56,862 bases of DNA from Candidatus Woesearchaeota archaeon (GCA_047603125.1 JBLKOU010000003.1:1-56862), one strand, 5' to 3'. Numbered from the stretch's first letter, positions 6,444-55,499 are shown. Numbers and translations: made by a program. Notes: a model not told the origin generated them from the sequence alone.

Positions 6444-6626
6444 TTTTAGACAGAAGCAAATTATGTGAAAATCCGTGTGTTTTTCACATTTAGTACCAAA
6501 AGGCGAATTCTCATTATAATGCGGCGATCTTCGAACAGTGGTTCATCTTGCGAATTTCTCCGGCGCGCAACTCCTCGAAATTCTGATTTTGCGCCAAGGC
6601 ATTATAATTTTTTATTGTCGCTAACT
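6444..6626 (+). repeat. Structured intergenic element, subfamily B, copy 1 (core 6513-6608)
   Basis: Near-identical to 55273-55499. ATTATAATGC/GCATTATAAT stem, GGCG/CGCC helix, AAG bulge, GAAC/GTTC and GAATTTC/GAAATTC hairpins. Confidence 0.85.
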
Positions 6627-6628
6627 TA

Positions 6629-7162
6629 TTAAGATGTAATCAACGCTTTTAATTTTTGGAGCGCTAATGCACGATGACTTATTTGTGACTTTTCTTTACG
6701 ACTCAACTCAGCAAATGTTTTTTCAAAACCATCAGGCAAAAATATTGAATCAAAGCCAAAAGCTTGACTCCCTCTGGGTGGAACAATAGTCCCTGAAACC
6801 TCTGCACGAAGTATATGCGTCGTTTCTCCATCAAAATAGCCTATGTGACAAACGGCTTTTGCACGATGATCGGAATAGCGAGTAACAATTTTGGAAATTT
6901 GCTGACAAGAAAGGCTTTGTAAAAACCATTTAACTAAAGGACCGGGAAACCCATTCAAACAAGAAATCTCCAAACTCACATCCTCGCAAAAAAAAGGTTC
7001 AGATAATTGTCCTTGAGCTACGAAAAGCTTTTGCTCGATTATTTTTTGTGCATCGAGCTCTTGAATTTCTGGAAGATCAATCTTTTTTTGCTCAACATTC
7101 ACAAAAATTTCTTTGACCTCAAGAAACTTTTTTTGGTTGCCGGTTAGAAAATACAGCGTCAT
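6629..7162 (-). CDS. rdgB: Non-canonical purine NTP pyrophosphatase (Ham1/RdgB/ITPase)
   Basis: TGNQKKF, LPEIQ, EDVSL, GFPGP, FGFDSIF and SHR motifs. Confidence 0.92.
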   Translation of the reverse strand: MTLYFLTGNQKKFLEVKEIFVNVEQKKIDLPEIQELDAQKIIEQKLFVAQGQLSEPFFCEDVSLEISCLNGFPGPLVKWFLQSLSCQQISKIVTRYSDHRAKAVCHIGYFDGETTHILRAEVSGTIVPPRGSQAFGFDSIFLPDGFEKTFAELSRKEKSQISHRALALQKLKALITS

Positions 7163-7611
7163 TTTTTTATAATCTTATCCAACTCTTGTGCGAACTCATC
7201 AATATCAGAAAATTCCCTATACACTGAGGCAAAGCGAATAAACGCAACCTTATCTAATTTGCGCAATTGTCGCATAACCATATTACCAATTTTTTTTGAT
7301 GGAATTTCTACAGAATCCATATTACGCAGCTTTGCTTCTACTTCATCTACAATTGCAACCATTTGATCATAAGAAATTGGGCGTTTATGGCAGGAAACTT
7401 GAATACCCTTGAGAACATTCTGTCTATCAAAAGAAACACGCTTACCATCTTTTTTAATAACAATGAGTTCTACTTCTTCCACACGCTCGTATGTTGTAAA
7501 GCGCTTCCCACATTTTAAGCATTCCCTACGACGACGCGTTGCAGTCTCATCGGGTGTTTCACGCTTATCAGTAACTTTATGCTCGTTTGAACCACAATAG
7601 GGGCATTTCAT
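7159..7611 (-). CDS. nrdR: Transcriptional repressor NrdR
   Basis: MKCPYC...RRRRECLKCGKRFTTYE zinc ribbon, ATP cone, and LDKVAFIRFASVYREF. Confidence 0.95.
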   Translation of the reverse strand: MKCPYCGSNEHKVTDKRETPDETATRRRRECLKCGKRFTTYERVEEVELIVIKKDGKRVSFDRQNVLKGIQVSCHKRPISYDQMVAIVDEVEAKLRNMDSVEIPSKKIGNMVMRQLRKLDKVAFIRFASVYREFSDIDEFAQELDKIIKK

Positions 7612-7772
7612 TCGTATTTTCCTTTGACCTTAAATTCTGGTGAGTTTAAGACACGTGTGTAATCCTGATAAAAGAGTTTTTTTTGGAATTGGCGAATATA
7701 TGCACGGTACAAAAGAATCCGAGCTATGAAAAATCCTACAAACATCCATAAAATAATTGTTGTCGCCTCCAT
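7608..7772 (-). CDS. Small membrane-anchored protein (54 aa, below the ORF-track cutoff)
   Basis: Read by hand: MEATTIILWMFVGFFIARILLYRAYIRQFQKKLFYQDYTRVLNSPEFKVKGKYE. Its stop overlaps the nrdR start (ATGA), and a TATA-like box lies upstream. Confidence 0.7.
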   Translation of the reverse strand: MEATTIILWMFVGFFIARILLYRAYIRQFQKKLFYQDYTRVLNSPEFKVKGKYE

Positions 7773-7881
7773 GTATATACTGATAATTGGGTCGTTTAAA
7801 AACTTTTTGAAGGTTTTAGAATGCCCAGAAAGTAAAAATAAGACCCTTTACACTAGGTTCCTAGCAGTCTTGGACAGAAAT

Positions 7882-8000
7882 GGCTTCATCCGAAAATTAT
7901 TTTTCAAAAAGAGCACGCAGATTTTGCTCAAGAGTCCCACTTTGAGAATCGTGCGAAAATTTGGCTGCAAGGTGCTCTTTCTCTTTTTTTGGATGAAGCC
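7882..8000 (+). repeat. Structured intergenic element, subfamily A, copy 1 (shortest)
   Basis: Outer IR GGCTTCATCC/GGATGAAGCC, stem AAAGAGCAC/GTGCTCTTT, GCAG/CTGC helix with AAG bulge, CTCAA/TTGAG hairpin. Confidence 0.85.
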
Positions 8001-8045
8001 CTGAGAAGCAGAATATTTATAAATCAAACAGATTTGCTTGCTTTT

Positions 8046-8237
8046 ATGGGAAGAATCCGAACAAAATTAGTAAAACGTTTAACAAATGACGTATTCAAAA
8101 ACATTGAACTGACTGATGATTTTGCAAAGAATAAGCAACTCATGGGTAAGCATGTCAAAACAGAATCAAAGAAAATGCGAAATGTCTTAGCAGGATATGG
8201 CGTTCAATTAGCAAAATTAAAAGCAAGACAACCATAA
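8046..8237 (+). CDS. rps17e: 30S ribosomal protein S17e
   Basis: MGRIRTKLVKR...TDDFAKNK...SKKMRNVLAGY. TATA box near 8016 fits a leaderless start at 8046. Confidence 0.93.
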   Translation: MGRIRTKLVKRLTNDVFKNIELTDDFAKNKQLMGKHVKTESKKMRNVLAGYGVQLAKLKARQP

Positions 8238-8254
8238 CTTCTTATCGCTTTTTT

Positions 8255-8328
8255 GACCCTGTAACATAGCCTGGATAGTGTGCATGGTTGCGGACCTTGT
8301 GGCCCGGGTTCGAATCCCGGCAGGGTCA
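8255..8328 (+). tRNA. tRNA-Arg(GCG)
   Basis: Acceptor GACCCTG/CAGGGTC, anticodon loop TT-GCG-GA, T arm CCGGG-TTCGAAT-CCCGG. CCA not encoded. Confidence 0.93.
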
Positions 8329-8332
8329 TTTT

Positions 8333-8743
8333 TTACGTAAAAATGAGAGTGCTCAAGTATAAACCGAGCAGAATAGAACAGAAAAGAACACCGCAACTAA
8401 TAAGATTGAGTTTTTGAGATTCTTTTGCGACTCTTGTTTTATAGATTGATTTTGTCAGTAAAACTAAACCAATAAACCAAACAATAATATTTATTACCGG
8501 GATAATACTTGTTACAAGAGAAAAAAGGTTTGCATGCAAAGACATTTTTGCAAGCGGAATTTTTGTAAATTTCTCAAAATAATCATGATGTTTGAGTATA
8601 GCAATGTAACTTAGTGCCGCTAAACCAATGATTAACACAGTAATAGAGAACCCTTCCCAACCAAACTGAGCTGTTGCATATAGTATAGAAATAACTGCCG
8701 CTGCAAGAATAAACCAGCGCTCATAGGTTGTTTTTTGAATCAT
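8333..8743 (-). CDS. Hypothetical membrane protein (about 4 TM helices)
   Basis: Hydrophobic segments. Start moved to MIQK (8743). Confidence 0.65.
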   Translation of the reverse strand: MIQKTTYERWFILAAAVISILYATAQFGWEGFSITVLIIGLAALSYIAILKHHDYFEKFTKIPLAKMSLHANLFSLVTSIIPVINIIVWFIGLVLLTKSIYKTRVAKESQKLNLISCGVLFCSILLGLYLSTLIFT

Positions 8744-8842
8744 AAGGGTATTTATATAGTGTAGTCTTAAAAACATATCGTTTTTTTTTACAAATCTGAA
8801 ACCAAACATTTATAAAACAACTGAGAGCCCTTCTACTTATTT

Positions 8843-8916
8843 GGCCCCATAGCATAGGCTGGATAGTGTACCGGGCTTCGGACCCGGTGACCTGGGTTCG
8901 AATCCCAGTGGGGTCA
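8843..8916 (+). tRNA. tRNA-Arg(TCG)
   Basis: Acceptor GGCCCCA/TGGGGTC, anticodon stem CCGGG/CCCGG with loop CT-TCG-GA, T arm CTGGG-TTCGAAT-CCCAG. Confidence 0.95.
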
Positions 8917-8970
8917 TTTCTTAACGCACAAACCAATTACTCTTTTAAATGGGTGCACGCTTACAGGTGT

Positions 8971-9393
8971 ATGAATGAACAACTTGTGCAATATGCCCAG
9001 ATTTTAACGCAGGCTCCAACACGTTGGGATATGCTCACGACATTAACTGAAATTGGTAAAGATTTGCCAGGATGTGAGCGCAGTGAGCAAAATAAAGTTC
9101 CACATTGCTTATCTTCTGTGTTTTTGGATGTTCGTATACAAGATAATAAAATCAAGATACATATCGATGCAGATGCTCATATTATTCGCGGCTATGCAAA
9201 AATACTCTATGATGCATTTGATAACATGCCCGTTAAAGACTTTCTACAATCAGCATCAACGGACATTAAAGAATTTGTTGAAAAAACACAAATAAATTCA
9301 AGCTTTCTTTCATCTCGGGCTAATTCATTTGGGACAATTTTTCTTTATCTACAAAAAAAAGTTCAAGAACGTGGACAAGCACCAAATGTATAA
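8971..9393 (+). CDS. sufE: SufE-family Fe-S metabolism protein
   Basis: LTEIGKDLP, NKVPHCLSSVFL (conserved Cys), DADAHIIRGY and LSSRANSF motifs. Confidence 0.8.
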   Translation: MNEQLVQYAQILTQAPTRWDMLTTLTEIGKDLPGCERSEQNKVPHCLSSVFLDVRIQDNKIKIHIDADAHIIRGYAKILYDAFDNMPVKDFLQSASTDIKEFVEKTQINSSFLSSRANSFGTIFLYLQKKVQERGQAPNV

Positions 9394-9821: not shown

Positions 9822-9959
9822 ATATTCTTTAGGAACGATTTTCTTTATTAATGTGTTCATTTTTGAAGCCAGATCTAAGAGCAAAAAGATACTGGGTGCT
9901 TTACTCATATGATTTTTCAAATAAATTTTATATATTATTCAAGAAATATAACAATCAAC

Positions 9960-10331: not shown

Positions 10332-10382
10332 CAAAATTATGTCTATACCACACGACCCCATTTTATAGTAATATAATTGAAA

Positions 10383-14163: not shown

Positions 14164-14260
14164 CTTGGTCGTACCAGTATTTTTTCGTAATGACTTTTTA
14201 TAGAGATGCTCAGCTCGTTGCTTTTTTGAAACATTTGTGATTGTTTCTATGGACTGATCA

Positions 14261-15526: not shown

Positions 15527-15660
15527 TGTTCCTACACAGCAATGTAAAAGAAAACACCGTTTATATAGTTTATGATACTCTTATGTGATAGTCACAGTCC
15601 GCGACGCTTGGAAAACCCTCTTATTCTCAATTACACACAGTATTTTTGTCATCACAAATG

Positions 15661-20754: not shown

Positions 20755-20794
20755 GCCTTTTAATAGATTTGACGTTTTAAACCTGCGACTCATT

Positions 20795-20997
20795 GACAGT
20801 GTTTGAATATCGTTATAAGCACTATTTCCTTGGTGAAATGTCAGAAATCGAGTGATTGTTGAACAATATCTTTGTTCAACATCGTTGGAAAAATCATTTT
20901 CCAACGTTTCATGCAACGAAGATTTCGCGAATAGACAGCCGTCGCAAAATCACCGAAATAGTGCGTTTTATGTATCAGACTAAGTTCAAACACTGTC
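20795..20997 (-). repeat. Structured intergenic element, subfamily C (core 20819-20964)
   Basis: Outer IR GACAGTGTTTGAA/TTCAAACACTGTC. On the minus strand: GCACTATTTC-GGTG...GCGAAATC...GATTTCTGAC-ATTT-CACC-AAG-GAAATAGTGC, with two inner hairpins. Confidence 0.8.
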
Positions 20998-21003
20998 GAC
21001 TCA

Positions 21004-21390
21004 TTACTCATTTATTGCTCTATAGACGAGTCTGGCACTTCTCGGTAAATCATTTATAAGATAGTTTATTGTAATTTCATCTTCTAATGCATCACAAGTC
21101 AATGTCGCCATTCTTCCTGGTTCGAAAACTTGTTGCTGTGCTTGACAGTACGAAAGTTCTGTAATCTGAATTGGATATGCGGCCAAATTTTGAATAACAA
21201 GTATAACTTGATTATTTTGTCGTGAAAATTCAACGCAGGTCATATCCGCTGAATCAAGATAACAACGATCGGGTAAAAAAGAATCAGGGCTGAGTACACC
21301 AAAGTACGCAAAGCCTAATGTAAAAAAAAGAAGACCAACTAAACTCACGCTCAATACTGCAACAATAACAATAATGAGCACTTTATCCAT
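21004..21390 (-). CDS. Pilin-like membrane protein lacking a class III cleavage site
   Basis: AYFGVLSPDSFLPDRC...MTC pilin-type motif after a long hydrophobic N-terminus. Confidence 0.65.
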   Translation of the reverse strand: MDKVLIIVIVAVLSVSLVGLLFFTLGFAYFGVLSPDSFLPDRCYLDSADMTCVEFSRQNNQVILVIQNLAAYPIQITELSYCQAQQQVFEPGRMATLTCDALEDEITINYLINDLPRSARLVYRAINE

Positions 21391-29380: not shown

Positions 29381-29515
29381 GCAATATTACCTTGATGCCT
29401 CATTACGACATGGCGCGATTGTTTGAAAGCTTCTTTCAAACTTGAGGATGAAAATCCGAAAATATGCAGCGCCTCGTCGGCAAGATACGCAACTCCAAAT
29501 CAGTCGTAATATTGC
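29381..29515 (-). repeat. Structured intergenic element, subfamily D
   Basis: GCAATATTAC/GTAATATTGC stem with AAG before the 3' arm (minus strand). Contains a 53-nt module matching 49089-49141 in reverse. Confidence 0.75.
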
Positions 29516-29584: not shown

Positions 29585-29690
29585 AAAAGAGCACGCAGAT
29601 TTGGCTCAAGAGTCCCACTTTGAGAATCGTGCAAAAATTTGGCTGCAGATAATCACCAAATTTTCTGATTTTACTGCAAGGTGCTCTTTT
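29585..29690 (+). repeat. Structured intergenic element, subfamily A, copy 2
   Basis: AAAAGAGCAC-GCAG...CTCAAGAGTCCCACTTTGAG...AAAATTTGG/CCAAATTTT-CTGAT...CTGC-AAG-GTGCTCTTTT. Confidence 0.85.
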
Positions 29691-38098: not shown

Positions 38099-38338
38099 TT
38101 ATCCGACACAGCAGTGCGGGCAAGAAACAAATAAATGAACATGATCGTCCATTATTTTGTGCGTAAACAGATCTATGCTATGACGTTCACATATCCATTT
38201 TACTGCTTCATGCATCAGCTCACGCTGATGCTCCTGTCTAAAGACAGGATTTCTATATTTTGGCAACAATACAACACGATACCAATTTTGCCCAACTTTG
38301 TGTCAAAAACTTTTTAGATTAGAGTTTTCACCATTCAT
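38099..38338 (-). pseudogene. tnpA: IS200 Y1 transposase, N-terminal part with in-frame stop
   Basis: Read by hand: MNGENSNLKSF*HKVGQNWYRVVLLPKYRNPVF...IMDDHVHLFVSCP, carrying the HUH motif and PKYR. Confidence 0.85.
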
Positions 38339-45788: not shown

Positions 45789-45895
45789 AAATGTAATAGT
45801 TGGAATCTAATTTAAAAAGGTATTCATTACACTGTGAGTTTCACACATAATATTTATAAATCAAGAACACATTGTCTAATTGTGATACATAACGC

Positions 45896-47164
45896 ATGAG
45901 TATAGAAATTATTCTCCTCATACTATTAGTGCTTCTTTCCGGTTTTTTTTCAGGAATTGAAGCCGCATTTTTCTCAGTTTCAAAATTAGATATAAAGAGA
46001 CTTGTACGAAAAAAAGTACGATATGCAAAGACACTACAAAAACTCAAAGAAGATACGCACCGTTTTATCATAACTGTTCTCATCGGAAATAATCTTGTCA
46101 ATATCGGGGCAACAGCACTTGCAACAAAAATTGCACTCGATATGTTCGGATCTCCAGGAATTGCAATTTCCACGGGTGTCATGACACTTGTCGTTTTGAT
46201 CGGGGGAGAAATTATCCCAAAATCGTTTTGCGCATATTACTCCAGACGTGTCGCTCTTTTTACGGCACCAATTATTGACACTCTTGCAAAAGTTCTTTTT
46301 CCAATCATTAGTTTTTTTGATTTTGTTACGCGAGGATTCTTATACCTTCTTGGTGTAAAAAAAACAACCAAGCAAACCATTACAGAAGAAGCAATAAAAG
46401 AACTTGCACAAATTAGCGTACAAGACGGCGGTATCAATAAAAATGAGCACGAACTCATCTCAAATGTCTTTGAATTTGATGAAACGATTATTCGTGAAAT
46501 TATGACTCCTAAAGAAACCAGCGAAATTGTTTCCATTAATACGCCACTTGAAAAAGTACTTGAGCTCATGAATAAAACAGGCTTTTCACGAATACCTGTT
46601 TATGAAAAAAATAGAGATACTATTGTGGGTGTAATTCATATAAAAGCAATTGTTGATTCCCTTGTAAATAAAAAGGAGGCAAACCTTCGAGGGCTGATGA
46701 GTGAACCATATTTTGTTCCAGACCAAAAAAAAATTAAAACCCTTCTTTCTAACTTTCGAAAAAGACAAACACATATGGCAATTGTCGTTAATGAATATGG
46801 TTCTTTTGTTGGTATTATTACCATTGAAGATGTTCTTGAAGAATTAGTCGGAGAAATTGATGATGAAACAGACAGAGACCAACACGAACCAATAGTACAA
46901 ATAAGTGAAGGCGTCTATAAGGTTCTTGGAGATTGTGAGATTGAACTTCTCAATGAACAATTACACACACGTCTGGAAAACGATATTACTTTTAATACTA
47001 TTAGTGGGCTCATACTCAATAAACTAGGCCGCATTCCAAAACCACAAGAAAAAATAGATATAAACTCTCTTCGTATCATTGTTACCAAAGCAACATCTTC
47101 ACAAATAATGGAATTGCGTGTGCATAAAAAGGGAATAAGAAAATCTAAGAATATAAGTCAATAA
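45896..47164 (+). CDS. Hemolysin/CNNM-CBS-CorC family protein
   Basis: SGFFSGIEAA, LIGNNLVN, GEIIPK, FSRIPV, VVNEYG and TIEDVLEELVGEI motifs. Confidence 0.93.
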   Translation: MSIEIILLILLVLLSGFFSGIEAAFFSVSKLDIKRLVRKKVRYAKTLQKLKEDTHRFIITVLIGNNLVNIGATALATKIALDMFGSPGIAISTGVMTLVVLIGGEIIPKSFCAYYSRRVALFTAPIIDTLAKVLFPIISFFDFVTRGFLYLLGVKKTTKQTITEEAIKELAQISVQDGGINKNEHELISNVFEFDETIIREIMTPKETSEIVSINTPLEKVLELMNKTGFSRIPVYEKNRDTIVGVIHIKAIVDSLVNKKEANLRGLMSEPYFVPDQKKIKTLLSNFRKRQTHMAIVVNEYGSFVGIITIEDVLEELVGEIDDETDRDQHEPIVQISEGVYKVLGDCEIELLNEQLHTRLENDITFNTISGLILNKLGRIPKPQEKIDINSLRIIVTKATSSQIMELRVHKKGIRKSKNISQ

Positions 47165-48200
47165 ATAAACTTGCCCAAAGCATTCCCTCATCACATTGAT
47201 ACAGTGTTCGTTTATAGGGGTTTTTTCCATCAAAAACTTCTAAAAATGTTTTATGTGTTGAAACTTGATCGGCAATGTTTTTCAAATATGTTTTTGCCAA
47301 TTTCGGATCATAGTCTTTTACAACTTGAATATAGCAGAGCCCTAAATGAATCCAATTTGTTGTTTGTTCATAATCGCTTGCTAAAAAAGAAAATATATTT
47401 TTCGAACCACCTTTTTCCCCCACATACTTTAAAGGAAGTGGATCATCTAATTTTCTTGCACGTATTTTTTTTTGTAGAGTCATCCACCGTGTTCTTTCTT
47501 GCACCATACCAACATAAAAAGGAAAAACCTGAGCATCTGAACAAAATTGTGTGCTTTTCGTTAAATCATTTCTATAATACGTGCCAGTCCAGAATTCTTT
47601 TTCAAAGGCTTCTTTTGAAATATATTTTGTTACTGTAAATTGCAATTTTCTCATATGCTCAATTGCAAAATAAGCCATCGCATTATCATAGCTTGCACTT
47701 TTTCTTTTATAGTGATCTCGCATACCTGAAAATGAACGTTTTTTTGTCACTAATCCATCTTCTATAAATGCCTCAAACACCCCTACTTGTTCTTGTAAAA
47801 AATCTCGATATGTTTCTACAAGTTGCTTATCGTCAAGAACAGACAAGCTGTAAAATAAAAACGCAAACGAATCTATAGCCGTAGTAAAATAATCAACGCA
47901 GCGTCCATCTTTTGTAATACTGGTTGTTATCTTTTTTTCTTTTTTGTAGGAACGTAAGGCAAAGTGCAATGTCTCTCTCACTTGTGAGCGATATCCTTGG
48001 TTTAGGAGTGCTTGAGCACAAATACCAAAATCTCGAATGTAAAACTCTTGAAAATGACCCAGTGATGTCTGAAAATAATGACCATTAAAACACTGCTCCA
48101 CAATCTGGCGACAAATCTGTATTGGATCCCCGCTAAATTGAGTGAAGGGTTTTTTTCTTCTCTTAAACATTCGCCATCCTGATTCGAGATACGGGTGCAT
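47145..48200 (-). CDS. Putative six-hairpin glycosidase-like protein
   Basis: GHFQEFYIRDFG N-terminal motif, WIHLG, FLEVFD and EGMLWA. The fold is inferred. Confidence 0.55.
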   Translation of the reverse strand: MHPYLESGWRMFKRRKKPFTQFSGDPIQICRQIVEQCFNGHYFQTSLGHFQEFYIRDFGICAQALLNQGYRSQVRETLHFALRSYKKEKKITTSITKDGRCVDYFTTAIDSFAFLFYSLSVLDDKQLVETYRDFLQEQVGVFEAFIEDGLVTKKRSFSGMRDHYKRKSASYDNAMAYFAIEHMRKLQFTVTKYISKEAFEKEFWTGTYYRNDLTKSTQFCSDAQVFPFYVGMVQERTRWMTLQKKIRARKLDDPLPLKYVGEKGGSKNIFSFLASDYEQTTNWIHLGLCYIQVVKDYDPKLAKTYLKNIADQVSTHKTFLEVFDGKNPYKRTLYQCDEGMLWASLFIDLYS

Positions 48201-48254
48201 ATAGACTCTTTTAGCAAAAATGTTTATAAAAGTAGTCGTTTTTTGAATCACTAA

Positions 48255-48347
48255 ACCCTTGTCGTATAGTCTGGATAGTACAAGGCCCTCCTATGGCATA
48301 CATTGCGAAGTAAGGCTTAGACCCGGGTTCGAATCCCGGCGAGGGTA
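48255..48347 (+). tRNA. tRNA-Arg(CCT) with a 19-nt intron at 37/38 (48294-48312)
   Basis: Acceptor ACCCTTG/CGAGGGT, anticodon stem AGGCC/GGCTT, CT-CCT-A-[TGGCATACATTGCGAAGTA]-A, T arm CCGGG-TTCGAAT-CCCGG. Confidence 0.9.
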
Positions 48348-48545
48348 TTTTACTAAGGGATTCGAACATCTGCGTAATCAAAGATTACTTGACTTTCTCG
48401 TTACACTCGAAAGAATCCCGGCGAGGGTATTTTACTAAGGGATTCGAACATCTGCGTAATCAAAGATTACTTGACTTTCTCGTTACACTCGAAAGAATCC
48501 CGGCGAGGGTATTTTACTAAGGGATTCGAACATCTGCGTAATCAA
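48331..48545 (+). repeat. 82-bp tandem repeat (2.6 copies) beginning with the tRNA 3' end
   Basis: Identical units start at 48331, 48413 and 48495 (GAATCCCGGCGAGGGTA...). Confidence 0.92.
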
Positions 48546-48577
48546 CATAGAGAATCTTAAAAAAATAAGAAAAAAAA

Positions 48578-48925
48578 TTAAAAAGTTAAATATTTTGATG
48601 CAAAACCACCAATAACCGGAATGTCTTTTTGATTCAAGTTAATAGCGTTAATAAGACCAATTATCCAAAGAATAAACAATCCAACTTGAATTAATAAGGC
48701 TATTGGTACAACGAGAATTAACCCTAACCCGAATGTCACTATTCCAATAATTGTTGATAATATTGAAATAACGAATCCTGCAATAAACGAAATAATCAAA
48801 AGATTTAACGCTTGTTTTACATGAAACTTTGTCTTTGTGTTTTGTGCTTTTTTATCGACAAAATACCAAATTATCCCAACAAGTATATAGGATAAGGCAC
48901 TGACGACTTTGTCATTTTGACCCAT
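48578..48925 (-). CDS. DUF4870-like membrane protein
   Basis: ALSY, FHVKQALNL and IIGLINA...IPVIG motifs. Confidence 0.8.
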   Translation of the reverse strand: MGQNDKVVSALSYILVGIIWYFVDKKAQNTKTKFHVKQALNLLIISFIAGFVISILSTIIGIVTFGLGLILVVPIALLIQVGLFILWIIGLINAINLNQKDIPVIGGFASKYLTF

Positions 48926-49009
48926 GTTTTTTCCCCCTTGCTTCATATGTTCGAAGCAAAACCATACCGTCTAATATGGATAATCCTTTATAACTATTTT
49001 GGTTATATG

Positions 49010-49199
49010 GGCGTCATCCAATATTCTTCAAAAAGAGCACGCAGATTTTGCTCAAGAGTCCCACTTTGAGAATCGTGCGAAAATTCGTCTGCAACTTTTC
49101 GGATTTTCATCCTCAAGTTTGAAAGAGGCTTTCAAACAATCACCGAATTTTCTGATCTTGCTGCAAGGTGCTCTTCTTTATTCTTTTTTGTATAAAGCC
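49010..49199 (+). repeat. Structured intergenic element, subfamily A, copy 3 (longest; core 49031-49175)
   Basis: Same core as 7908-7980 plus an internal two-hairpin insert (includes GTTTGAAAG/CTTTCAAAC). Outer IR decayed. Confidence 0.85.
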
Positions 49200-49208
49200 A
49201 GTTGTGCA

Positions 49209-49820
49209 TCAAATCAATGCCAAAACTCCGTTAATAATAAACTGAATACCAACGACAAGAACGAGTAACCCCATAATCTGATCAATTATCTTTCTCCCGT
49301 TTTTCCCAATAAATTTGAGAACAATAGAAGAATTGCTTAAAATTAAAAATGAAACATAACAAACTGCCATAATTGCACTTATAAGCGTCAACATTTGTAA
49401 AACACCTGTTGCTTGCGCCATTAAAACTATTGTTGCTGTCATTGCTCCAGGACCTGAAAGCATGGGAATTGCTAAAGGAATAAGTGAGAGATCTTGAAGA
49501 TTTCTAGGCTTATGAGCATGCTTTCGCTCATCATCCGCATTTGTCAACATCATAAATGCAATACGTATGATTAAAAGACCCCCTGCAATTCTAAAAGCCT
49601 CAATAGTAATTGAAAAAAAAGAAAGTATGAGATTTCCTGCCATACTAAAGACAATAAGAACACACGCTGCTGTTATTGCTGCATTTTTTGCAATATGGCG
49701 TTTTTGGGCAGGTGTTGCGCTTTTTGCAAGTGTTAAAAATATTGAAGACGTACTAAATGGGTTCATAATAGTAAACAAAGAAGAAAAACAAAGACCAAAA
49801 AAAGCAAGTAGTTCAATCAT
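49209..49820 (-). CDS. marC: MarC family membrane protein
   Basis: IMNPF, FRIAGG, IPLAIPMLSGPGA and IMGLL motifs. Confidence 0.9.
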   Translation of the reverse strand: MIELLAFFGLCFSSLFTIMNPFSTSSIFLTLAKSATPAQKRHIAKNAAITAACVLIVFSMAGNLILSFFSITIEAFRIAGGLLIIRIAFMMLTNADDERKHAHKPRNLQDLSLIPLAIPMLSGPGAMTATIVLMAQATGVLQMLTLISAIMAVCYVSFLILSNSSIVLKFIGKNGRKIIDQIMGLLVLVVGIQFIINGVLALI

Positions 49821-49955
49821 AGGTGGTTTTCAGGATTTAGCCTTTTTAAACATTTTTGATTTCGGGAGTATTTGGAAGAAAAGACTGAGCACTACTGCAC
49901 CCTCACATTAAATGACATAAACTATGAATTTATACAAATAGTATTGTAACAATAT

Positions 49956-50570
49956 CTACTTATAATCAAAACGTCCACAAGCAAGCACACACACATAGGT
50001 TGATAGTTCTCGAGGTTTTGAAAACATTCTTGGGTGAACACATTTTGGAAAATCAAATTCAGTATGAAAGCCTCGCAGTTCATGCTGATTATTTGCAATC
50101 AGACCTAAACGATTTTGATTTCTATATGCAAAAAATGTTGCAGGAATTTCTGATGAAGTATCATGAGATACATAACCAATTGCAAGCCACTTATTTGCAA
50201 CAAGTAATGTCCCTTTTCTGTGAGGGAAAAATCTTCGTGTATCGAGTATCGAGAAAACGTCTTGTACTTGACTCAAATTGAGAGGAAATGATTGATCGTT
50301 GAGTGCTGATTCTAAAACATCAGTTAAACTGGTCTGTATAAGTTCATATTTGCGATGAAAAAGCGGACTATACGCACTTGTTACTATTCGCTTTGCTTTC
50401 TCCAATGGCGCTGTTTGTACTGATTTTTGTGATCCAAATACCATAAGTAAATGATAAGAGGAAGATGAACTATTTATTTGTTTCTTTTTTTGCAAATAAG
50501 TGTATACTGAGTCGACTCGCAATCCTACCGCGTAAATCAATTTTGCAACAATGTTAATAAATGATGACAT
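49956..50570 (-). CDS. Hypothetical protein
   Basis: 204-aa ORF with no recognised motif. Confidence 0.45.
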   Translation of the reverse strand: MSSFINIVAKLIYAVGLRVDSVYTYLQKKKQINSSSSSYHLLMVFGSQKSVQTAPLEKAKRIVTSAYSPLFHRKYELIQTSLTDVLESALNDQSFPLNLSQVQDVFSILDTRRFFPHRKGTLLVANKWLAIGYVSHDTSSEIPATFFAYRNQNRLGLIANNQHELRGFHTEFDFPKCVHPRMFSKPRELSTYVCVLACGRFDYK

Positions 50571-50582
50571 TTTTCTTATACT

Positions 50583-51686
50583 ATGCTCTCAGAAAAGTAC
50601 AAAAAACAACTTGAACACCAAGGATATAGTATTGTTGGAGATCATAGTGCGGTAAAAACATGCGGTTGGACAAAAAGCATGATCCGAGGACACGGCGGAT
50701 GCTATAAACTCACTTTTTATGGAATTATGAGTCATCAGTGCATGCAAATGTCAACAAGTCTGAGTTGTGCAAATAGATGTACATTTTGTTGGCGAGGATA
50801 TAAGGCGCCAGTTTCTAAAGGATGGAAATGGAAAACAGATGATCCAGTATTTATTGTAAATGAAAGCAAAAAAGCACATCATAAACAACTCACCGGCTTT
50901 GGTGGCTCACAGAGTGCAAGAAAAGCTCTTTACAAGGGCTCAAAAACAATTAAGCATGTCGCACTCTCACTTACAGGAGAACCATTACAATATCCTCGCA
51001 TGAATGAATCTATTGATGAATTTCACAGACAAGGAATTTCAACATTTTTAGTTACGAATGCACAATTCCCTGAAGAACTTGAGCAATTAAAACCCGTCAC
51101 ACAATTATATTTAAGTATTGATGCGCCAAATGAACAACTTCTTAAAATTGTCGACGTCCCGTTATTTTCAGATTTCTGGCAACGACAACAAGCTTGTCTT
51201 GATATTCTTGCAAAAAAACCATCACGAACAACCATACGCCTTACTATCATAAAAGGCATTAATGATACTGATTTACCAGGATACGCTTCTCTGATTAACC
51301 GCGGAGATCCCGATTTTATAGAAGTAAAAGGCTATATGCACATTGGTGAATCCCAGCTTCGACTAGAACGAAAACACATGCCCATGCATGAAGAAGTTGT
51401 TGCGTTTTCTCAAGCACTTGAAAAATATCTTCCTGAATACGAACTTGTAACTGAGCATGTTCCGTCCAGTGTCGTATTATTTGCAAAAAAACGCTTCAAA
51501 AAAAATGGTGAGTGGTATACTTGGATTGATTTTGATAAATTTTTTACACTTGCACAAGAATCAACACCACCAAACGCTGATGACTATATTCGAAAAACAC
51601 CAAAGGTTGGCTTTAGTGGAAAAACAACACAGGACTATTTTCAAACAGTGATTAAACGAAAAGAATTACAAAAGAAAAAAAACTAG
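50583..51686 (+). CDS. taw1: 4-demethylwyosine synthase Taw1/TYW1
   Basis: HSAVKTCGWT, CYKLTFYGI, CANRCTFCWR, ALSLTGEP and FIEVKGY motifs. Confidence 0.95.
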   Translation: MLSEKYKKQLEHQGYSIVGDHSAVKTCGWTKSMIRGHGGCYKLTFYGIMSHQCMQMSTSLSCANRCTFCWRGYKAPVSKGWKWKTDDPVFIVNESKKAHHKQLTGFGGSQSARKALYKGSKTIKHVALSLTGEPLQYPRMNESIDEFHRQGISTFLVTNAQFPEELEQLKPVTQLYLSIDAPNEQLLKIVDVPLFSDFWQRQQACLDILAKKPSRTTIRLTIIKGINDTDLPGYASLINRGDPDFIEVKGYMHIGESQLRLERKHMPMHEEVVAFSQALEKYLPEYELVTEHVPSSVVLFAKKRFKKNGEWYTWIDFDKFFTLAQESTPPNADDYIRKTPKVGFSGKTTQDYFQTVIKRKELQKKKN

Positions 51687-52018
51687 TGGTTCTTAGCATA
51701 CGCAAGTAAATTATCTCGAAGTGTTTTTGAATAATTAGCAACGCCATTATGAACTGTTATAGCAGCATATAATCTTTTATCTGGCATAGAAGAAATGGTT
51801 ACATATCTTGGAGATTGTTCCAGTTTTTTATGCTCAAGTTGTAGCTGTGTGACGTTCATACTTTCTATTTTATACGATTGTCTACTTGTTGTGTCTAACC
51901 AAAGACCTGGATATGGATTTTGACGTTTGTGCTTCAAAAAGGAGCCTACTAATTTTACAACATCATCTACCGAAGTTCCACCTTCAAATTCAATGCAATT
52001 ATCACCACTTGGCTTCAT
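51683..52018 (-). CDS. Hypothetical protein
   Basis: 111-aa ORF with an upstream TATA-like box. Confidence 0.55.
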   Translation of the reverse strand: MKPSGDNCIEFEGGTSVDDVVKLVGSFLKHKRQNPYPGLWLDTTSRQSYKIESMNVTQLQLEHKKLEQSPRYVTISSMPDKRLYAAITVHNGVANYSKTLRDNLLAYAKNH

Positions 52019-52081
52019 GTAGGTGTGAAAAAAAGGGCTCTTTATAAAGCTTTCGCAGCGTTACTACTTTTCAGGGACTTT

Positions 52082-52714
52082 TTATTCGTAAAACTCTAAT
52101 TTATCATCTGTTAAAATCCCTTTTTTTAGCGCAACCGGACGCCACGTATCTTCCACAAGTGAAGCATCTAGCCAAGCTGCAAGCTCACGAGGATTGCCAA
52201 TTGTTGCTGACAACCCAATAATTTGTGCTTTTGGTAATTGTGTTTTTAAAATCGTTAAAACAATCTCTAATGTCGGGCCACGCATGGAGTCATGGAGTTG
52301 GTGAATTTCATCTACAACAATACAGCCCACATCATGTATCCAAGGTGTATGATGGCGTAAAAGCGAGTCTAATTTTTCGCTCGTTGTTATTATCAAATCA
52401 TACTGCTCTAAATACGAATCTGTCGCATCAACGTCCCCTATTGATCGCGCTATTGCAAAATCATACGTTTTTTTAAAAGAATGATACTTCTCATTGGCAA
52501 GAGCTTTTAGAGGAACAATGTAGATTGCCTTCTTCTTTTTGCCAAAAATTGCATCTAAAAATGCCAATTCTCCAACAAACGTCTTTCCAGATGCCGTTGG
52601 CGTGCAAATAAGAAGGTTCTCTCCTGCAAATAACCCTGCATCTACTGCCTTTTGCTGACTAGGTCGAAGAGTATCATGCACTAAGAATGGCCGTATATGT
52701 GTGGGAATCTCCAT
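52082..52714 (-). CDS. Stand-alone N-terminal RecA domain of a Hel308/Ski2-like helicase
   Basis: PTASGKT, PLKALANEK, TSEKLD, DEIH and LSAT. Stops shortly after WRPV. Confidence 0.8.
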   Translation of the reverse strand: MEIPTHIRPFLVHDTLRPSQQKAVDAGLFAGENLLICTPTASGKTFVGELAFLDAIFGKKKKAIYIVPLKALANEKYHSFKKTYDFAIARSIGDVDATDSYLEQYDLIITTSEKLDSLLRHHTPWIHDVGCIVVDEIHQLHDSMRGPTLEIVLTILKTQLPKAQIIGLSATIGNPRELAAWLDASLVEDTWRPVALKKGILTDDKLEFYE

Positions 52715-52782
52715 ATTTAGTGTGAAACATGTATCATTTATAAGTGCATAGTTTTTTAAATTGAAAAAACCAGTATTCTTGT

Positions 52783-53157
52783 GTGATTGAAGATAAAGAT
52801 ATTTCAAGTAGAGAAGAACGAATTATCGAAAAAGAAGCTACAATTCAATCTGATCGCTTCGGTCTTATGGGACTTCGCGTGATCTCTATAGCTTTTTGCG
52901 TAGTCGCACTTCTTCGAATTCTTATGATTGGTTTGGAATTATTTGGTCTTTTACTTGCCGGTGCAGGAGTTTTATTTTATTTACTCGCACACCATGTATC
53001 TCGACGGGAAGAGCCAACACAAGAAGAACGAGATTTTGAAAAACGTGCACAAAAAATGCACATCTTTGCTTCTATATTAAATGGATTTCGCGAAGATAAA
53101 ACCGAAAAAGAGTTTATTGCAAAAAAGAAAAAGAAATCATTTTTTCAGCAGAATTGA
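52783..53157 (+). CDS. Hypothetical membrane protein (2 TM)
   Basis: Two hydrophobic helices with charged termini. Confidence 0.55.
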   Translation: MIEDKDISSREERIIEKEATIQSDRFGLMGLRVISIAFCVVALLRILMIGLELFGLLLAGAGVLFYLLAHHVSRREEPTQEERDFEKRAQKMHIFASILNGFREDKTEKEFIAKKKKKSFFQQN

Positions 53158-53331
53158 ATCTCGGCTGTAAACTCATTATTCATCTAAACAGAAAATCAGC
53201 GATAGGGAGTGTCCGGAAAAGAAGAAAAATTGCAGGCACTTCGCGGCAAAAAAGACAGCTGTCGCGAAATCCGAAAAGTTGCAAAGAAATCCAAATGCTT
53301 TTTCGTGTCATTTGAGACATACTCAAGCATA

Positions 53332-53484
53332 GGCTTTATCCAATAGTTGTTTTTCAAAAAAGAGCACGCAGACTTGGCTCAAGAGTCCCACTTTGAGAAG
53401 TATGCGAAAATTCGCTTGTATGAAGCAGCGAATTTTCTGACTTTATTGCAAGGTGCTCTTTTTTCTTATTTTTTTGATGAAGCC
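53332..53484 (+). repeat. Structured intergenic element, subfamily A, copy 4
   Basis: AAGAGCAC-GCAG...GAAAATTCGCT/AGCGAATTTTC-TGAC...TTGC-AAG-GTGCTCTT. Outer IR GGCTTTATC/GATGAAGCC. Confidence 0.85.
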
Positions 53485-53529
53485 CAAGTGATAAGAACTT
53501 TTAAAAAGATTGCCTCTTGAACTCTTTGT

Positions 53530-54024
53530 ATGTTAGAAGCATATGAAAAATTACAAAAAAGTGAAGAGTTTGAAAAAACAGATTTGACAGGTTTTGAACT
53601 CGTACATTGTTTTTGCATGAAATCACCTCAAATTCAACATCCACCATGGCAATTTGGCTATTATCATTTAGATAAACAACAAATGATTGAGTTTCACGTC
53701 CATGATTCAAAGATTGAAATCATGCATAATTCTGAATTGCTCAAAGATCCAAATACGCAACTTCTTGCACTCTCCCTTGACGGTGTTTTGTCTCAGCAAG
53801 AGATTGAAGAAAAAACAATTGCATTTCTCGAAAAGACATATACCCACGCACACACACAAACAAAAATACTGCTCTTACAAAATATTGCTGAATTTGGAAT
53901 TGTGTGGAATGTGACGTATATATTAATCACTTGGCAAACAGTTAATGTCAAGTTTGATGCAAAGACGGGTGAAGTAAAGGCGCACGCAATCCAAAATTTA
54001 CTTGATACAAAACAGGGGAATTAG
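53530..54024 (+). CDS. Conserved hypothetical protein (PepSY-like C-terminus)
   Basis: WQFGYY, VWNVT and VKFDAKTGEV motifs. Confidence 0.7.
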   Translation: MLEAYEKLQKSEEFEKTDLTGFELVHCFCMKSPQIQHPPWQFGYYHLDKQQMIEFHVHDSKIEIMHNSELLKDPNTQLLALSLDGVLSQQEIEEKTIAFLEKTYTHAHTQTKILLLQNIAEFGIVWNVTYILITWQTVNVKFDAKTGEVKAHAIQNLLDTKQGN

Positions 54025-54039
54025 CGAAATATCAACTTT

Positions 54040-54333
54040 TTAGAGGTACGGTTTTGGCAACCCTCGAGAAAGAAGAAAATTATAAACACGTGGGCGCGTA
54101 TCTTCTAAAGCAAACATCATTTTTCTATACTGTAAAGCGAGTGTACTGCGTTTCGCATAAAATCGCATTGTATCTACGATAGTCCCACCAGGCAATGGTC
54201 TTGCGAAAACACGTGTTCGCATTCGCTCCCATTTTCTTCGATCTTTCGGATAGCTTTCTTCTAAAACCGAAGTAGAAAAAACAGGCTCAATACCCTTGTA
54301 AGAACTTCTCTCAAAACATCCTTCTAAAGACAT
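54040..54333 (-). CDS. Hypothetical protein
   Basis: 97-aa ORF with a TATA-like box about 25 bp upstream. Confidence 0.5.
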   Translation of the reverse strand: MSLEGCFERSSYKGIEPVFSTSVLEESYPKDRRKWERMRTRVFARPLPGGTIVDTMRFYAKRSTLALQYRKMMFALEDTRPRVYNFLLSRGLPKPYL

Positions 54334-54556
54334 AGGTATGATTTCTCTTCAACGTATATAAATATTTCGTCAATTAAATTTTCTCAAAAATATCTTCGCA
54401 ACTGAAAACCATAGCTTCAAACAGTTACTTTGCATCTTATGAGATTTTATAAATCAAAATTACCAAAGTTATACTATGACATATACAGCAAAAATGGGGT
54501 GCAAAGAGATGACAAAGACAAAAGGATTAACTGATTTTATTGATGATGATTGCGAG

Positions 54557-54838
54557 TCATGACCATCTAATTTTTTCTAATTCTCCACGGACGCTTAATT
54601 CATTTGAAGCGCCCAAAAGAGAAAATACTTTACTTCTTAATGCGCGTGTTTTTTGTGGACTGTAAATATGCGAAATAATATTATCACAAATAGTATCTGC
54701 AAGCATTGCTTTTTGTTTTGAAGTCAATAATTTGAGAGGAGGGTCTAATTCAAGGGCTTTCATTTCTCGTAAAATAAGAAAGCTTGCGCTTGGACCTACA
54801 AGTTTTTCTAAATAAACAACAAGTGGATGACTACTCAT
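54557..54838 (-). CDS. Hypothetical helical protein
   Basis: LEKLVGPSASFLI. Overlaps the CBS gene stop. Confidence 0.55.
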   Translation of the reverse strand: MSSHPLVVYLEKLVGPSASFLILREMKALELDPPLKLLTSKQKAMLADTICDNIISHIYSPQKTRALRSKVFSLLGASNELSVRGELEKIRWS

Positions 54839-55226
54839 AGGAAAAAACAGAACGCGCCAAATGCTTGAGTAAATCCGACTCTGCGACAATACCAACAAGT
54901 CGTTGTTTTTGTAAAATAGGAACTTTTTTTATTTTCTTTGCGATAATAAGATGCGCGATTTGAACATCGGTTTGAGTTATATCGCCACAAATTACTGGAG
55001 AAGTCATCACTTGTGATATTTTGGTTGTTGTGGGTAAACCCTTGACAACAACCCTATCGACTAAATCTCGCTCACTAAAGACGCCTAATACATGTTTGTT
55101 TTTATCAATAATGACTACCGTACTTGTCTTTTGCTTTTTGAGAATTTTACATGCCCCAAGAACCGTTATATTTGCAGAACATGTTGCCACCTTTGTGCGC
55201 ATCACTTCACGTACATTCATCGCCAT
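54831..55226 (-). CDS. CBS-pair protein
   Basis: VREVM, GVFSERDL, VMTSPV and KVPI...LVGIV motifs. Confidence 0.9.
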   Translation of the reverse strand: MAMNVREVMRTKVATCSANITVLGACKILKKQKTSTVVIIDKNKHVLGVFSERDLVDRVVVKGLPTTTKISQVMTSPVICGDITQTDVQIAHLIIAKKIKKVPILQKQRLVGIVAESDLLKHLARSVFSYE

Positions 55227-55272
55227 ATTCGTATTTGAGAATGCTGTGATTAAAAAGTTTGTGTTAGAAAAA

Positions 55273-55499
55273 TTTTAGACAGAAGTAAAATTATGTGAAA
55301 ATCTGTGTTTTTTTCACATTTAGAATTCACTTTTTCTATGTTTAAAAGCATATTTTTCTCATTGAGTACCTAATGGCGAATTCCAATTATAATGCGGCGA
55401 TCTTCGAACAGCGGTTCATCTTGCGAATTTCTCCGGTGCGCAACTCCTCGAAATTCTGATTCTGCGCCAAGGCATTATAACTTGTTATTATCGTTAACT
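55273..55499 (+). repeat. Structured intergenic element, subfamily B, copy 2 (core 55386-55480)
   Basis: Matches 6444-6626 except for an insertion of about 42 bp near 55323-55365 and scattered substitutions. Confidence 0.85.

What the first reader, a model, noticed from the sequence alone, without database searches (positions are those of the whole stretch)
6513..55480. A dispersed family of structure-conserved, sequence-divergent intergenic elements (stem / AAG bulge / 4-bp helix / multi-hairpin junction)
Seen: eight intergenic elements in four sequence subfamilies fold the same way. Subfamily A (7908, 29585, 49031, 53357; +) reads GAGCAC-GCAG...CTGC-AAG-GTGCTC. B (6513, 55386; +) reads TAATGC-GGCG...CGCC-AAG-GCATTA. 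C (20819-20964; -) reads CTATTTC-GGTG...CACC-AAG-GAAATAG. D (29381-29515; -) reads ATATTAC-GA...TC-AAG-GTAATAT and is degenerate. The closing stems are unrelated in sequence yet fully complementary, and the unpaired AAG is invariant. The full-length A, B and C copies also share a GAT-initiated hairpin arm followed by GC(G/A)AA-[stem]-TTCTGAY. Orientation is independent of flanking transcription: copies sit in convergent, divergent and co-directional gaps, on either strand. Inference: a non-autonomous mobile ssDNA/RNA element family (REP/REPIN/PATE-like, possibly moved by an HUH transposase such as the IS200 TnpA seen at 38 kb), or a multi-copy structured ncRNA class. I do not recognise it as a described family.
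Basis: partly seen in the sequence, partly recalled or inferred. Interest (0 to 1): 0.85.

Follow-up and report, generated by a model that had tools for sequence, protein, structure and literature searches.

The report
MITE family with a shared Y-shaped core
The eight elements belong to a family of about 110 small non-coding transposons that fill this tiny lake bacterium's intergenic DNA; all are built around one conserved Y-shaped palindromic core that relatives also carry at the end of a full transposase-bearing insertion sequence.

Summary
A covariance model built from 22 copies finds all 8 reported elements in the window and 109 copies in the 1.12-Mb genome. It also finds 2-38 copies in 6 of 9 other genomes of the same family, and 45 copies on metagenome contigs. 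Stems P1, P2 and P4 covary strongly: 91% of cells are paired, against 58-60% in shuffles and 33-43% with slid partners. The C|G junction, CAAGG, the TGA after P4 and a 10-nt loop stay nearly constant.

The HUH/IS200 mechanism is not supported. Copies carry subfamily-specific terminal inverted repeats and target-site duplications (3 bp in 16 of 17; 9 bp exact in 9 of 24; 8 bp in 2 of 2). Orientation shows no bias to GC skew or genes. The only Y1 transposase is a truncated fragment.

These are MITEs. In two relatives and one metagenome contig the same core lies between an ISH3-like DDE transposase gene and the right inverted repeat. This genome holds deleted remnants of that IS.

Pairing is almost strictly Watson-Crick: G-T about equals A-C at about 2%, against 8% G-U in this genome's tRNAs. 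That favours a DNA-level role over an RNA gene. The core's function remains inferred. No Rfam match was found.

The parts
6491..6627 (+). B-type element: core 6513-6608, with an outer left repeat starting at 6491 and a right repeat ending about 6627
   Evidence: CM hit, 84.3 bits. Outer repeats read. The right repeat was located at 6627.
7882..8000 (+). A-type element, 75-nt deleted core (7907-7981) inside an A shell (inverted repeats at 7882 and 8000)
   Evidence: CM hit, 43.5 bits. Inverted-repeat positions. Sequence. Two other 75-nt copies are in the genome.
20787..21006 (-). C-type element, long form: core 20819-20964, inverted repeats 20795-20807 and 20986-20998, with an 8-bp target duplication at 20787-20794 and 20999-21006
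   Evidence: CM hit, 65.9 bits. Sequence. Flanks. The same shell with exact 8-bp duplications occurs in 2 of 2 other scored copies.
29381..29515 (-). D-type core carrying the 42-nt optional arm; it lacks the TGA after P4
   Evidence: CM hit, 38.3 bits, E 1.4e-8. At least 7 D copies in the genome.
29585..29690 (+). A-type core, basic 106-nt form; outer shell degenerate
   Evidence: CM hit, 84.3 bits. Flanks show no recognisable outer repeats.
49010..49199 (+). A-type element, long form: core 49031-49177 with the 42-nt arm in loop L4 (49097-49138), diverged outer repeats at 49010-49019 and 49190-49199
   Evidence: CM hit, 65.1 bits. Sequence. BLAST of this copy finds 46 matches in the genome. 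Arm census.
53332..53485 (+). A-type element: core 53358-53462, outer repeats at 53332-53341 and 53476-53485
   Evidence: CM hit, 83.1 bits. Inverted repeat located. Sequence. The flanking 9-mers match only 4 of 9 as scored.
55364..55500 (+). B-type element: core 55386-55481 with outer repeats. It is preceded by a further repeated module at 55273-55363.
   Evidence: CM hit, 81 bits. Sequence. Flanks shared with other B copies. An RNA-library contig covers 55276-55481 without a difference.
38117..38290 (-). Truncated Y1 (IS200-type) transposase fragment; not part of the element family
   Evidence: PF01797 match to profile positions 4-60 of 121, and the only match in the genome. The ORF is 56 aa.

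Best explanation
The elements are MITEs: short, non-coding deletion derivatives of insertion sequences that were cut and pasted as double-stranded DNA by DDE-type transposases.

Shown:
- Each copy is a long imperfect palindrome.
- Its tip is a conserved core of about 90 nt: P1, an AAG bulge, a 4-bp P2, then a three-way junction with hairpins P3 and P4. P4 is capped by a nearly invariant 10-nt loop, L4.
- Its base is a pair of subfamily-specific terminal inverted repeats, flanked by a duplication of fixed length (3, 8 or 9 bp).
- In relatives, the same core lies in the sense direction between the transposase gene and the right inverted repeat of a 1.27-kb ISH3-like IS.
- This genome keeps internally deleted remnants of that IS.
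- A congeneric pair of species differs by presence or absence of the element at orthologous sites.

Inferred:
- The A, B, C and E shells descend from related IS elements that are missing from these fragmented assemblies.
- The core is the only part shared by all lineages. Its stems are kept by almost purely Watson-Crick compensation, whatever the orientation to genes.
- From this I infer that the core is a cis-acting signal that works as folded DNA (a hairpin or cruciform) and that lineages must keep it to go on propagating.
- What reads the core is unknown.

The confidence given (0.7) is for the whole statement. I put the mobile-DNA (MITE/IS-derived) identity alone at about 0.85-0.9, and the DNA-level cis-signal role of the core at about 0.4.
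For: Copy number and spread:
- 109 CM matches in the 1.116-Mb genome.
- 2-38 copies in 6 of 9 other genomes of the family, and 0 of 31 genomes of other families in a first sample.
- 1-3 copies in 4 of 150 genomes of a wider sample of the order.

Target duplications:
- E/B shell: exact 3-bp duplication in 16 of 17 copies, against 1 exact among the 16 controls scored.
- A shell: exact 9-bp duplication in 9 of 24 copies, and 12 of 24 with at most 1 mismatch. Controls gave 0 and 1.
- C shell: exact 8-bp duplication in 2 of 2 copies, plus the window copy by reading.
- The same E/B-type and C-type shells recur in G007, with 3-bp and roughly 8-bp duplications.

Link to a full IS:
- The core lies 35 nt inside the end of an IS with a 390-aa DDE_Tnp_1 protein in G007. 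Its best NCBIfam match is ISH3 (E 5e-31).
- The core is at the same place in G005 and on metagenome contig L158.
- The G007 and G005 cores differ by compensatory changes.
- Remnants in this genome lie at C42, C48 and C58.

Empty sites: 2 of 2 testable G008 loci lack the element in the congeneric G003.

Near-identical E copies indicate a recent burst.

DNA-level pairing:
- 1404 Watson-Crick, 32 G-T and 44 A-C cells.
- 922, 15 and 17 in the metagenome set.
- This genome's 32 tRNAs have 640 Watson-Crick and 56 G-U pairs.

Orientation is random to genes (25 vs 26; 13 vs 15) and to GC skew (47 vs 51).
Against: - No transposase of families PF01609, PF00665 or PF13358 is found in this assembly.
- No autonomous partner with the A, C or E/B ends was found here or in five relatives. 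For those shells the parent IS is assumed.
- Three duplication lengths imply several transposases, yet one core is shared. Simple descent from one IS does not explain that.
- Homologous transposases in 15 genomes of other families show no core (best E 0.088).
- G008-type and metagenome copies have no outer repeats. Each has its own P1 and P4 sequence, still paired. That pattern fits selection on each copy, or on a structure-reading machinery, better than ordinary MITE decay.
- The same 42-nt arm sits in loop L4 of at least 6 otherwise unrelated subfamilies, and never elsewhere. This is unexplained.
- A T-rich tract follows P1' in many copies, and RNA-library contigs cover three kinds of copy. 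An RNA role is therefore not excluded.
Confidence: 0.7

Rival explanations
1. The core is a structured RNA that works in the transcript. It could be a 3' element of the transposase mRNA (terminator, stabiliser or protein-binding site) or a self-processing RNA. MITEs would carry it only by descent.
For: - The core is in the sense direction, downstream of the transposase, in 3 of 3 IS copies.
- P1' is followed by a T-rich tract in many copies.
- The conserved unpaired nucleotides (loop L4, TGA, AAG) resemble a tertiary or protein-binding motif.
- Optional hairpin arms occur in L4, as in expandable RNAs.
- RNA-library contigs cover the B copy at 55276-55481 without a difference, and also A- and D-type copies.
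Against: - G-U pairs are 2.2% and 1.6% of pairs and are no commoner than A-C mismatches. The same genome's tRNAs have 8%.
- Orientation is random with respect to neighbouring genes, both in this genome and in the shell-less lineage.
- No Rfam family matches, even at E<=10.
- No consistent promoter-like site lies in the cores of the 8-kb stretch scanned.
- Contigs from an RNA library do not show transcription, and DNA carry-over is possible.
Confidence: 0.2
2. The core, bounded by P1, is a mobile unit in its own right. Its ends are read by shape rather than by sequence. It has landed in, or been captured by, other palindromic MITEs and the end of an IS, and these then amplified it as a passenger.
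For: - Shell-less copies exist (G008 and metagenomes), with no pairing beyond P1.
- 4 of 50 such copies have 7-nt-or-longer direct repeats directly flanking the core. Permutations give a mean of 0.98, and 2 of 300 reach 4.
- P1, P2 and P4 differ in nearly every G008 copy yet stay paired.
- Shells with three duplication lengths share only the core.
- The 42-nt arm is found only in L4, in one orientation, across subfamilies.
Against: - No empty shell lacking a core was found.
- Shell type and core type are inherited together across genera. For example, C shells in G000 and G007 have the same P2 and P4.
- No enzyme is identified.
- The two empty-site comparisons show extra inserted bases and no clean duplication.
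- The 4-of-50 signal is small.
Confidence: 0.15
3. REP/REPIN- or PATE-like single-strand DNA elements moved by an HUH (Y1) transposase.
For: - The elements are hairpin-rich, with strict Watson-Crick pairing compatible with folded single-stranded DNA.
- A Y1_Tnp fragment lies in the window.
Against: - Fixed-length target duplications and terminal inverted repeats are present. From recalled family knowledge, IS200/IS605 elements and REPs make neither.
- There is no orientation bias to GC skew (47 vs 51).
- The Y1 gene is truncated and single.
- Y1_Tnp is present in G004, which has no copies, and was not found in five genomes with 10-38 copies.
Confidence: 0.03

Closest known systems
Bacterial MITEs (for example Correia elements of Neisseria, RUP of Streptococcus pneumoniae, Nezha of cyanobacteria; named from recall)
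   Same: They are short, non-coding, intergenic and multi-copy. They have terminal inverted repeats and target-site duplications, fold into a long hairpin, and occur as recent near-identical bursts.
   Different: Here, subfamilies with unrelated inverted repeats and three duplication lengths share one internal three-way-junction core. Its loops are conserved and its stems compensate across genera. I know of no described MITE family with that property. Three paper searches listed nothing matching; I saw only the search listings and abstract starts.
ISH3-family / IS4-superfamily insertion sequences (DDE_Tnp_1)
   Same: The full-length element in G007 is 1268 bp. It has 14-16-bp inverted repeats and one 390-aa ORF with a DDE_Tnp_1 domain. 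Its best NCBIfam match is ISH3.
   Different: The score is below the family cut-off (107.9 vs 225 bits). It carries a conserved structured module between the gene and the right end. That module was not detected next to homologous transposases of other families of the order.
REP/REPIN elements with RAYT transposases
   Same: They are abundant intergenic palindromes whose hairpin is maintained while the sequence drifts.
   Different: The elements here make target duplications, have terminal inverted repeats, show no strand bias, and have no co-occurring Y1 gene.
Integron attC sites
   Same: Both are structure-conserved and sequence-divergent, with an extrahelical bulge on one strand and a variable terminal structure.
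   Different: The elements here are dispersed, in both orientations, not in cassette arrays. The conserved letters (C|G, CAAGG, TGA, loop L4) are not, as I recall them, the attC core sites. Integrase genes were not searched for.
T- or Y-shaped terminal palindromes of parvovirus-type DNA (shape analogy only, recalled)
   Same: Both form a three-way junction from nested DNA palindromes kept strictly Watson-Crick.
   Different: Those are ends of linear single-stranded genomes copied by hairpin transfer. Here the palindrome is internal to a chromosomal transposon, and no Rep-type gene is linked to it.

Membership tests
MITE | Short (under about 300 bp) with no coding capacity | tested here: met
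   Cores are 75-148 nt and whole elements about 120-220 nt. 7 of 109 copies overlap a called ORF by more than 30 nt.
MITE | Terminal inverted repeats | tested here: met
   A, C and E/B shells were read. Both repeats were found in 24, 2 and 17 copies respectively by strict matching. 66 of 109 copies were not assigned to one of these three shells.
MITE | Target-site duplication of fixed length | tested here: met
   3 bp: 16 of 17 exact. 9 bp: 9 of 24 exact and 12 of 24 with at most 1 mismatch. 8 bp: 2 of 2. Controls: 1 of 16, 0, and 0.
MITE | Cognate autonomous IS with the same ends | tested here: inconclusive
   Met for the H type only. The IS occurs in G007, G005 and L158, and the remnants in this genome share its right end. 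It was not found for the A, C or E/B shells. The assemblies are fragmented.
MITE | Insertion polymorphism between related genomes | tested here: met
   G008 has 36 copies and the congeneric G003 has 0. 2 of 2 alignable loci are empty in G003.
REP/REPIN-RAYT | Co-occurring intact Y1 (RAYT) gene | tested here: not met
   This genome has only a fragment covering profile positions 4-60 of 121. In the family, Y1_Tnp is found in G004 (0 copies) and G002 (2 copies), and not in G001 or G005-G008.
IS200/IS605-derived PATE | No inverted repeats, no duplication, and strand-biased insertion | tested here: not met
   Inverted repeats and duplications are present. Orientation against GC skew is 47 vs 51.
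Any Rfam family (including self-cleaving ribozyme classes) | Covariance-model match | tested here: not met
   The gathering-threshold scan of the window finds 3 tRNAs only. Scans at E<=10 over an A copy and a B copy give only chance-level rows, with a best E of 0.83.
ISH3 family (the IS found in relatives) | Transposase reaches the family model's cut-off | tested here: inconclusive
   NF033541 is the best hit at E 5.1e-31, but 107.9 bits is below the 225-bit cut-off. PF01609 is above its cut-off.
Structured ncRNA gene family | Wobble-tolerant covariation and orientation tied to transcription | tested here: not met
   G-U 32 vs A-C 44 among 1559 cells, and 15 vs 17. The tRNAs have 56 G-U against 640 Watson-Crick pairs. 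Orientation is 25 vs 26 and 13 vs 15.

The most novel reading that the evidence does not exclude
The transposition machinery of this lineage reads a folded DNA three-way junction (the invariant C|G / CAAGG hinge and the 10-nt L4 loop) rather than the sequence of the inverted repeats. Ends and stems would then be free to drift as long as they pair. That would make this a structure-guided DDE transposon system, or a new kind of hairpin element, in which a bare core of about 100 nt is the minimal mobile unit and L4 is a recognition or recombination site.
Probability: 0.2. Interest if true: 0.8.

Novelty: new variant of a known kind. Interest (0 to 1): 0.55.

Why it matters
About 1% of a 1.1-Mb streamlined genome consists of one repeat family, and that family breaks the assembly at many contig ends.

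The family is a natural experiment. Dozens of lineages keep one Y-shaped fold while nearly every paired base changes. The fold is tied physically to a DDE transposase gene.

If the fold is needed in cis, it would be a rare case of a DDE insertion sequence that depends on an internal DNA structure. If it is only a passenger, it still gives a clean marker for tracing IS-to-MITE decay and horizontal spread among uncultured small-genome lake bacteria.

The covariance model can also be used to mask these repeats and to improve binning and assembly of such genomes.

Tried and rejected
Rejected or without result:
- Known RNA families: no Rfam match.
- Hammerhead, twister-type, C/D-box and bulge-helix-bulge readings. 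I considered these from recalled consensus features and dropped them because the order of stems and junction strands does not fit. This was recall, not a test beyond Rfam.
- HUH link: rejected.
- Reverse transcriptase link: PF00078 is found in G007 only, so it shows no association.
- Autonomous partners for the A, C and E/B shells: inverted repeats occur only at MITE spacing in this genome and in five relatives. No PF01609, PF00665 or PF13358 is found in this assembly.
- Search for the IS in metagenome contigs by protein: nothing.
- Cores next to homologous transposases of other families: none.
- A G002 DDE_Tnp_1 gene has no core nearby.
- Two inverted cores 3.1 kb apart in G087 flank ordinary genes (TsaD and others), not a transposon.
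- Promoter scan: no consistent site in the cores.
- L4 pseudoknot with the junction strands: looked at by eye and not supported by the divergent copies.
- Phage and plasmid collections: no match.
- Naming the organism: one distant protein hit and an Atlas look-up gave no lineage name.
- Reads: only contigs were available. No contig skips a whole element in 46000-55900, so there is no empty-site evidence there. The internal joints reflect short and long L4 forms of other copies. The RNA-library contigs show presence only.
- Papers: three searches listed nothing on such a family. I saw only listings and abstract starts and read no paper. Supplements were not consulted.
- Structure prediction, complex prediction and the large protein searches were not used.

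Limits:
- Gene calls for the orientation counts are my own ORF heuristic.
- The A3 and A6 alignments are fitted to the model, which favours pairing.
- The genome search scored only part of the candidates, so copy numbers in relatives are lower bounds.

Full report
**What is there**

The window is contig C25 of a 1,115,666-bp assembly. It has 70 contigs, 36.4% G+C and a bacterial SSU rRNA. The organism is held by lake-water metagenome runs of two coded studies.

The eight elements lie at the stated places. Aligned, the basic form is 86-106 nt. In order it contains:
- P1, a 10-bp stem that ends in an invariant C-G pair;
- P2, a 4-bp stem that starts with an invariant G-C pair;
- a short A/T-rich strand;
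- hairpin P3;
- a strand ending in GC;
- P4, a stem of about 11 bp;
- loop L4, with consensus YTGCATRAATC;
- the 3' strand of P4, followed by TGA and five variable bases;
- the 3' strand of P2, the AAG bulge, and the 3' strand of P1.

Long forms carry two extra hairpins inside L4. Folded alone as DNA, six copies give P1 and P4 in every case, with z-scores from -1.4 to -7.6. A P3 hairpin of at least 4 bp is predicted in 80 of 99 distinct segments.

**More than chance, and a real family**

- An exact scan gives 102 hits against 17 in a shuffled genome.
- RNAalifold on 22 representatives predicts 24 pairs, 18 of them with double changes.
- On 66 copies from five genera, 91.2% of cells pair. Shuffles give 57.8% (0 of 500 reach the observed value) and slid partners give 36-42%.
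- A pattern covering only L4 to CAAGG pulled 80 listed metagenome contigs. 41 of them hold 45 full cores, with 91.6% pairing against 60.2% in shuffles. The C-G and G-C hinge pairs are present in 43 of 43 distinct copies.
- No Rfam family matches.

**They are transposed DNA with inverted repeats and duplications**

Every subfamily continues outward from P1 into its own terminal inverted repeats.

| Shell | Copies with both repeats | Duplication length | Exact | At most 1 mismatch | Control |
|---|---|---|---|---|---|
| E/B | 17 | 3 bp | 16 | 16 | 1 exact among 16 controls scored |
| A | 24 | 9 bp | 9 | 12 | 0 exact, 1 with at most 1 mismatch |
| C | 2 | 8 bp | 2 | 2 | 0 |

- The window's C copy also has an 8-bp duplication, by reading.
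- 66 of 109 copies were not assigned to one of these three shells by my strict matching.
- The E/B-type and C-type shells, with the same duplication lengths, recur in G007. A GGC-type shell with a 9-bp duplication occurs in G005.
- About 15 to 19 E copies are almost identical over about 150 bp, which indicates a recent burst.
- Copies lie in intergenic DNA: 7 of 109 overlap an ORF by more than 30 nt.
- They favour divergent gaps (34) over convergent gaps (2). In co-directional gaps they point either way (25 vs 26).
- There is no bias to GC skew (47 vs 51) or to the local gene strand (51 vs 47).
- G008 has 36 copies and the congeneric G003 has none. At both loci that could be aligned, G003 has the flanks joined without the element.

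**Link to a full insertion sequence**

- A search for PF01609 across the family finds three genes.
- Two of them, in G007 and G005 (different genera), have an R1 match of 74.5 and 69.9 bits at the same place. It is on the same strand as the gene and ends 35 nt from the end of the element.
- The G007 element is 1268 bp. It has 14-16-bp inverted repeats and one 390-aa ORF. The best NCBIfam match is ISH3, below its cut-off.
- The ORF runs into the core in G007 and stops inside it on contig L158, so the core is not conserved coding sequence.
- A third copy, with a 385-aa DDE_Tnp_1 ORF, the core and the same right end, lies on metagenome contig L158.
- The G007 and G005 cores differ in P1 and P4 by paired changes.
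- This genome has two H-type cores followed by that right end (C42, C48). It also has a remnant in which N- and C-terminal transposase pieces are joined without the catalytic part (C58). This is a stage between IS and MITE.
- Transposase homologues in 15 genomes of other families have no detectable core.

**What the HUH idea fails on**

- The Y1_Tnp match at 38117-38290 covers less than half of the profile. It is a 56-aa ORF and the only such match in the genome.
- Across the family it does not follow the element.
- Reverse transcriptase occurs in G007 only.

**DNA or RNA?**

- In 1559 stem cells there are 1404 Watson-Crick, 32 G-T, 44 A-C and 79 other cells.
- The metagenome set gives 922, 15, 17 and 57.
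- In this genome's own copies, P1 and P2 give 27 G-T and 36 A-C.
- The 32 tRNAs of the same genome have 56 G-U beside 640 Watson-Crick pairs. ARAGORN's brackets do not show mismatches, so only the G-U share can be compared.
- Wobble pairs are thus about four times rarer than in a real RNA of this cell, and no commoner than the mismatch that is their mirror on the other strand.
- Together with the random orientation, this points to pairing kept at the DNA level.
- It does not prove it. A T-rich tract follows P1' in many copies, the core is sense to the transposase in 3 of 3 IS copies, and contigs of one RNA library cover three kinds of copy.

**What remains odd**

1. Shells with three duplication lengths share only the core. 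From recall, subgroups of the IS5 family differ in duplication length in just this way (3, 8 and 9 bp), so diverged relatives of one superfamily are a possible source. I could not test this.
2. In G008 and in most metagenome copies there is no pairing beyond P1. Each copy also has its own P1 and P4, still paired. 4 of 50 such copies have direct repeats of at least 7 nt right at the core's edges. Permutations give a mean of 0.98, and 2 of 300 reach 4.
3. One 42-nt two-hairpin arm, 88-98% alike, was found 43 times by BLAST. It sits at the same point of L4, in the same orientation, in at least 6 subfamilies whose stems are unrelated. 34 of the 43 lie inside listed CM hits. By inspection, the other 9 lie in D-type or truncated cores.

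These three points keep open the bolder reading: that the fold itself is what the machinery recognises, and that the bare core can move.

**Distribution**

- Within the family, 6 of 9 other genomes hold the core.
- In a wider sample of the order, 4 of 150 other genomes, from four other families, hold 1-3 copies each, next to ordinary genes.
- None was found in phage or plasmid collections.

**Verdict**

This is a real, well-delimited and previously uncatalogued MITE superfamily derived from DDE insertion sequences. It is unusual in being defined by a conserved Y-shaped DNA palindrome rather than by its ends.

- The mobile-DNA identity is well supported.
- The cis-acting role of the core is inference.
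- The HUH mechanism is rejected, and the ncRNA-gene reading is disfavoured.

Noticed in passing
window 48255-48347 (+): tRNA-Arg(CCT) is 93 nt long, with about 19 extra bases right after the anticodon loop position. This is unusual for a bacterial tRNA-Arg. It could be a small intervening sequence or an odd extra arm.
   Followed up: no
G000 contigs C21, C43, C53, C55, C69 (right flanks listed): A second palindromic repeat of about 50 nt has inserted into the right arm of several A-, B- and J-type elements. It starts TTGAGAGTTTCGCGGG and ends CAAACTCTCAA. This is a separate small repeat family nested in the first.
   Followed up: no
window 6440-6490 and 55273-55363: A further repeated module lies upstream of B-type copies and is shared with copies on C9, C16, C45 and C55. 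The 55.3-kb copy has an extra segment of about 42 nt. The best promoter-like match of the 8-kb scan lies in it, on the minus strand at 55299-55272.
   Followed up: partly
window 55553-55900: An RNA-library contig of 1006 nt (depth 42.5) begins at 55553 directly after adapter letters. It lies over the ORF at 55537-56133(-). This may mark an end of an abundant transcript.
   Followed up: no
L037 (G005:C28), transposase gene: The G005 copy of the IS transposase has two in-frame TGA codons. One homologue in G145 has one. These are probably decayed copies. An alternative code was not tested.
   Followed up: no
G000 contig ends (for example C8:36-190, C33:95-243, C67:123-272, C16:206-354): Many contigs of the assembly end in or next to a copy of the element, so the family is a main cause of the assembly's fragmentation.
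   Followed up: no
J-type copies on G000 C58, C67, C53: J-type elements are flanked on both sides by similar stretches of about 15 nt (TTTTTCGGACAT-like, part of a palindrome). This suggests insertion into yet another repeat, or a preferred target.
   Followed up: no
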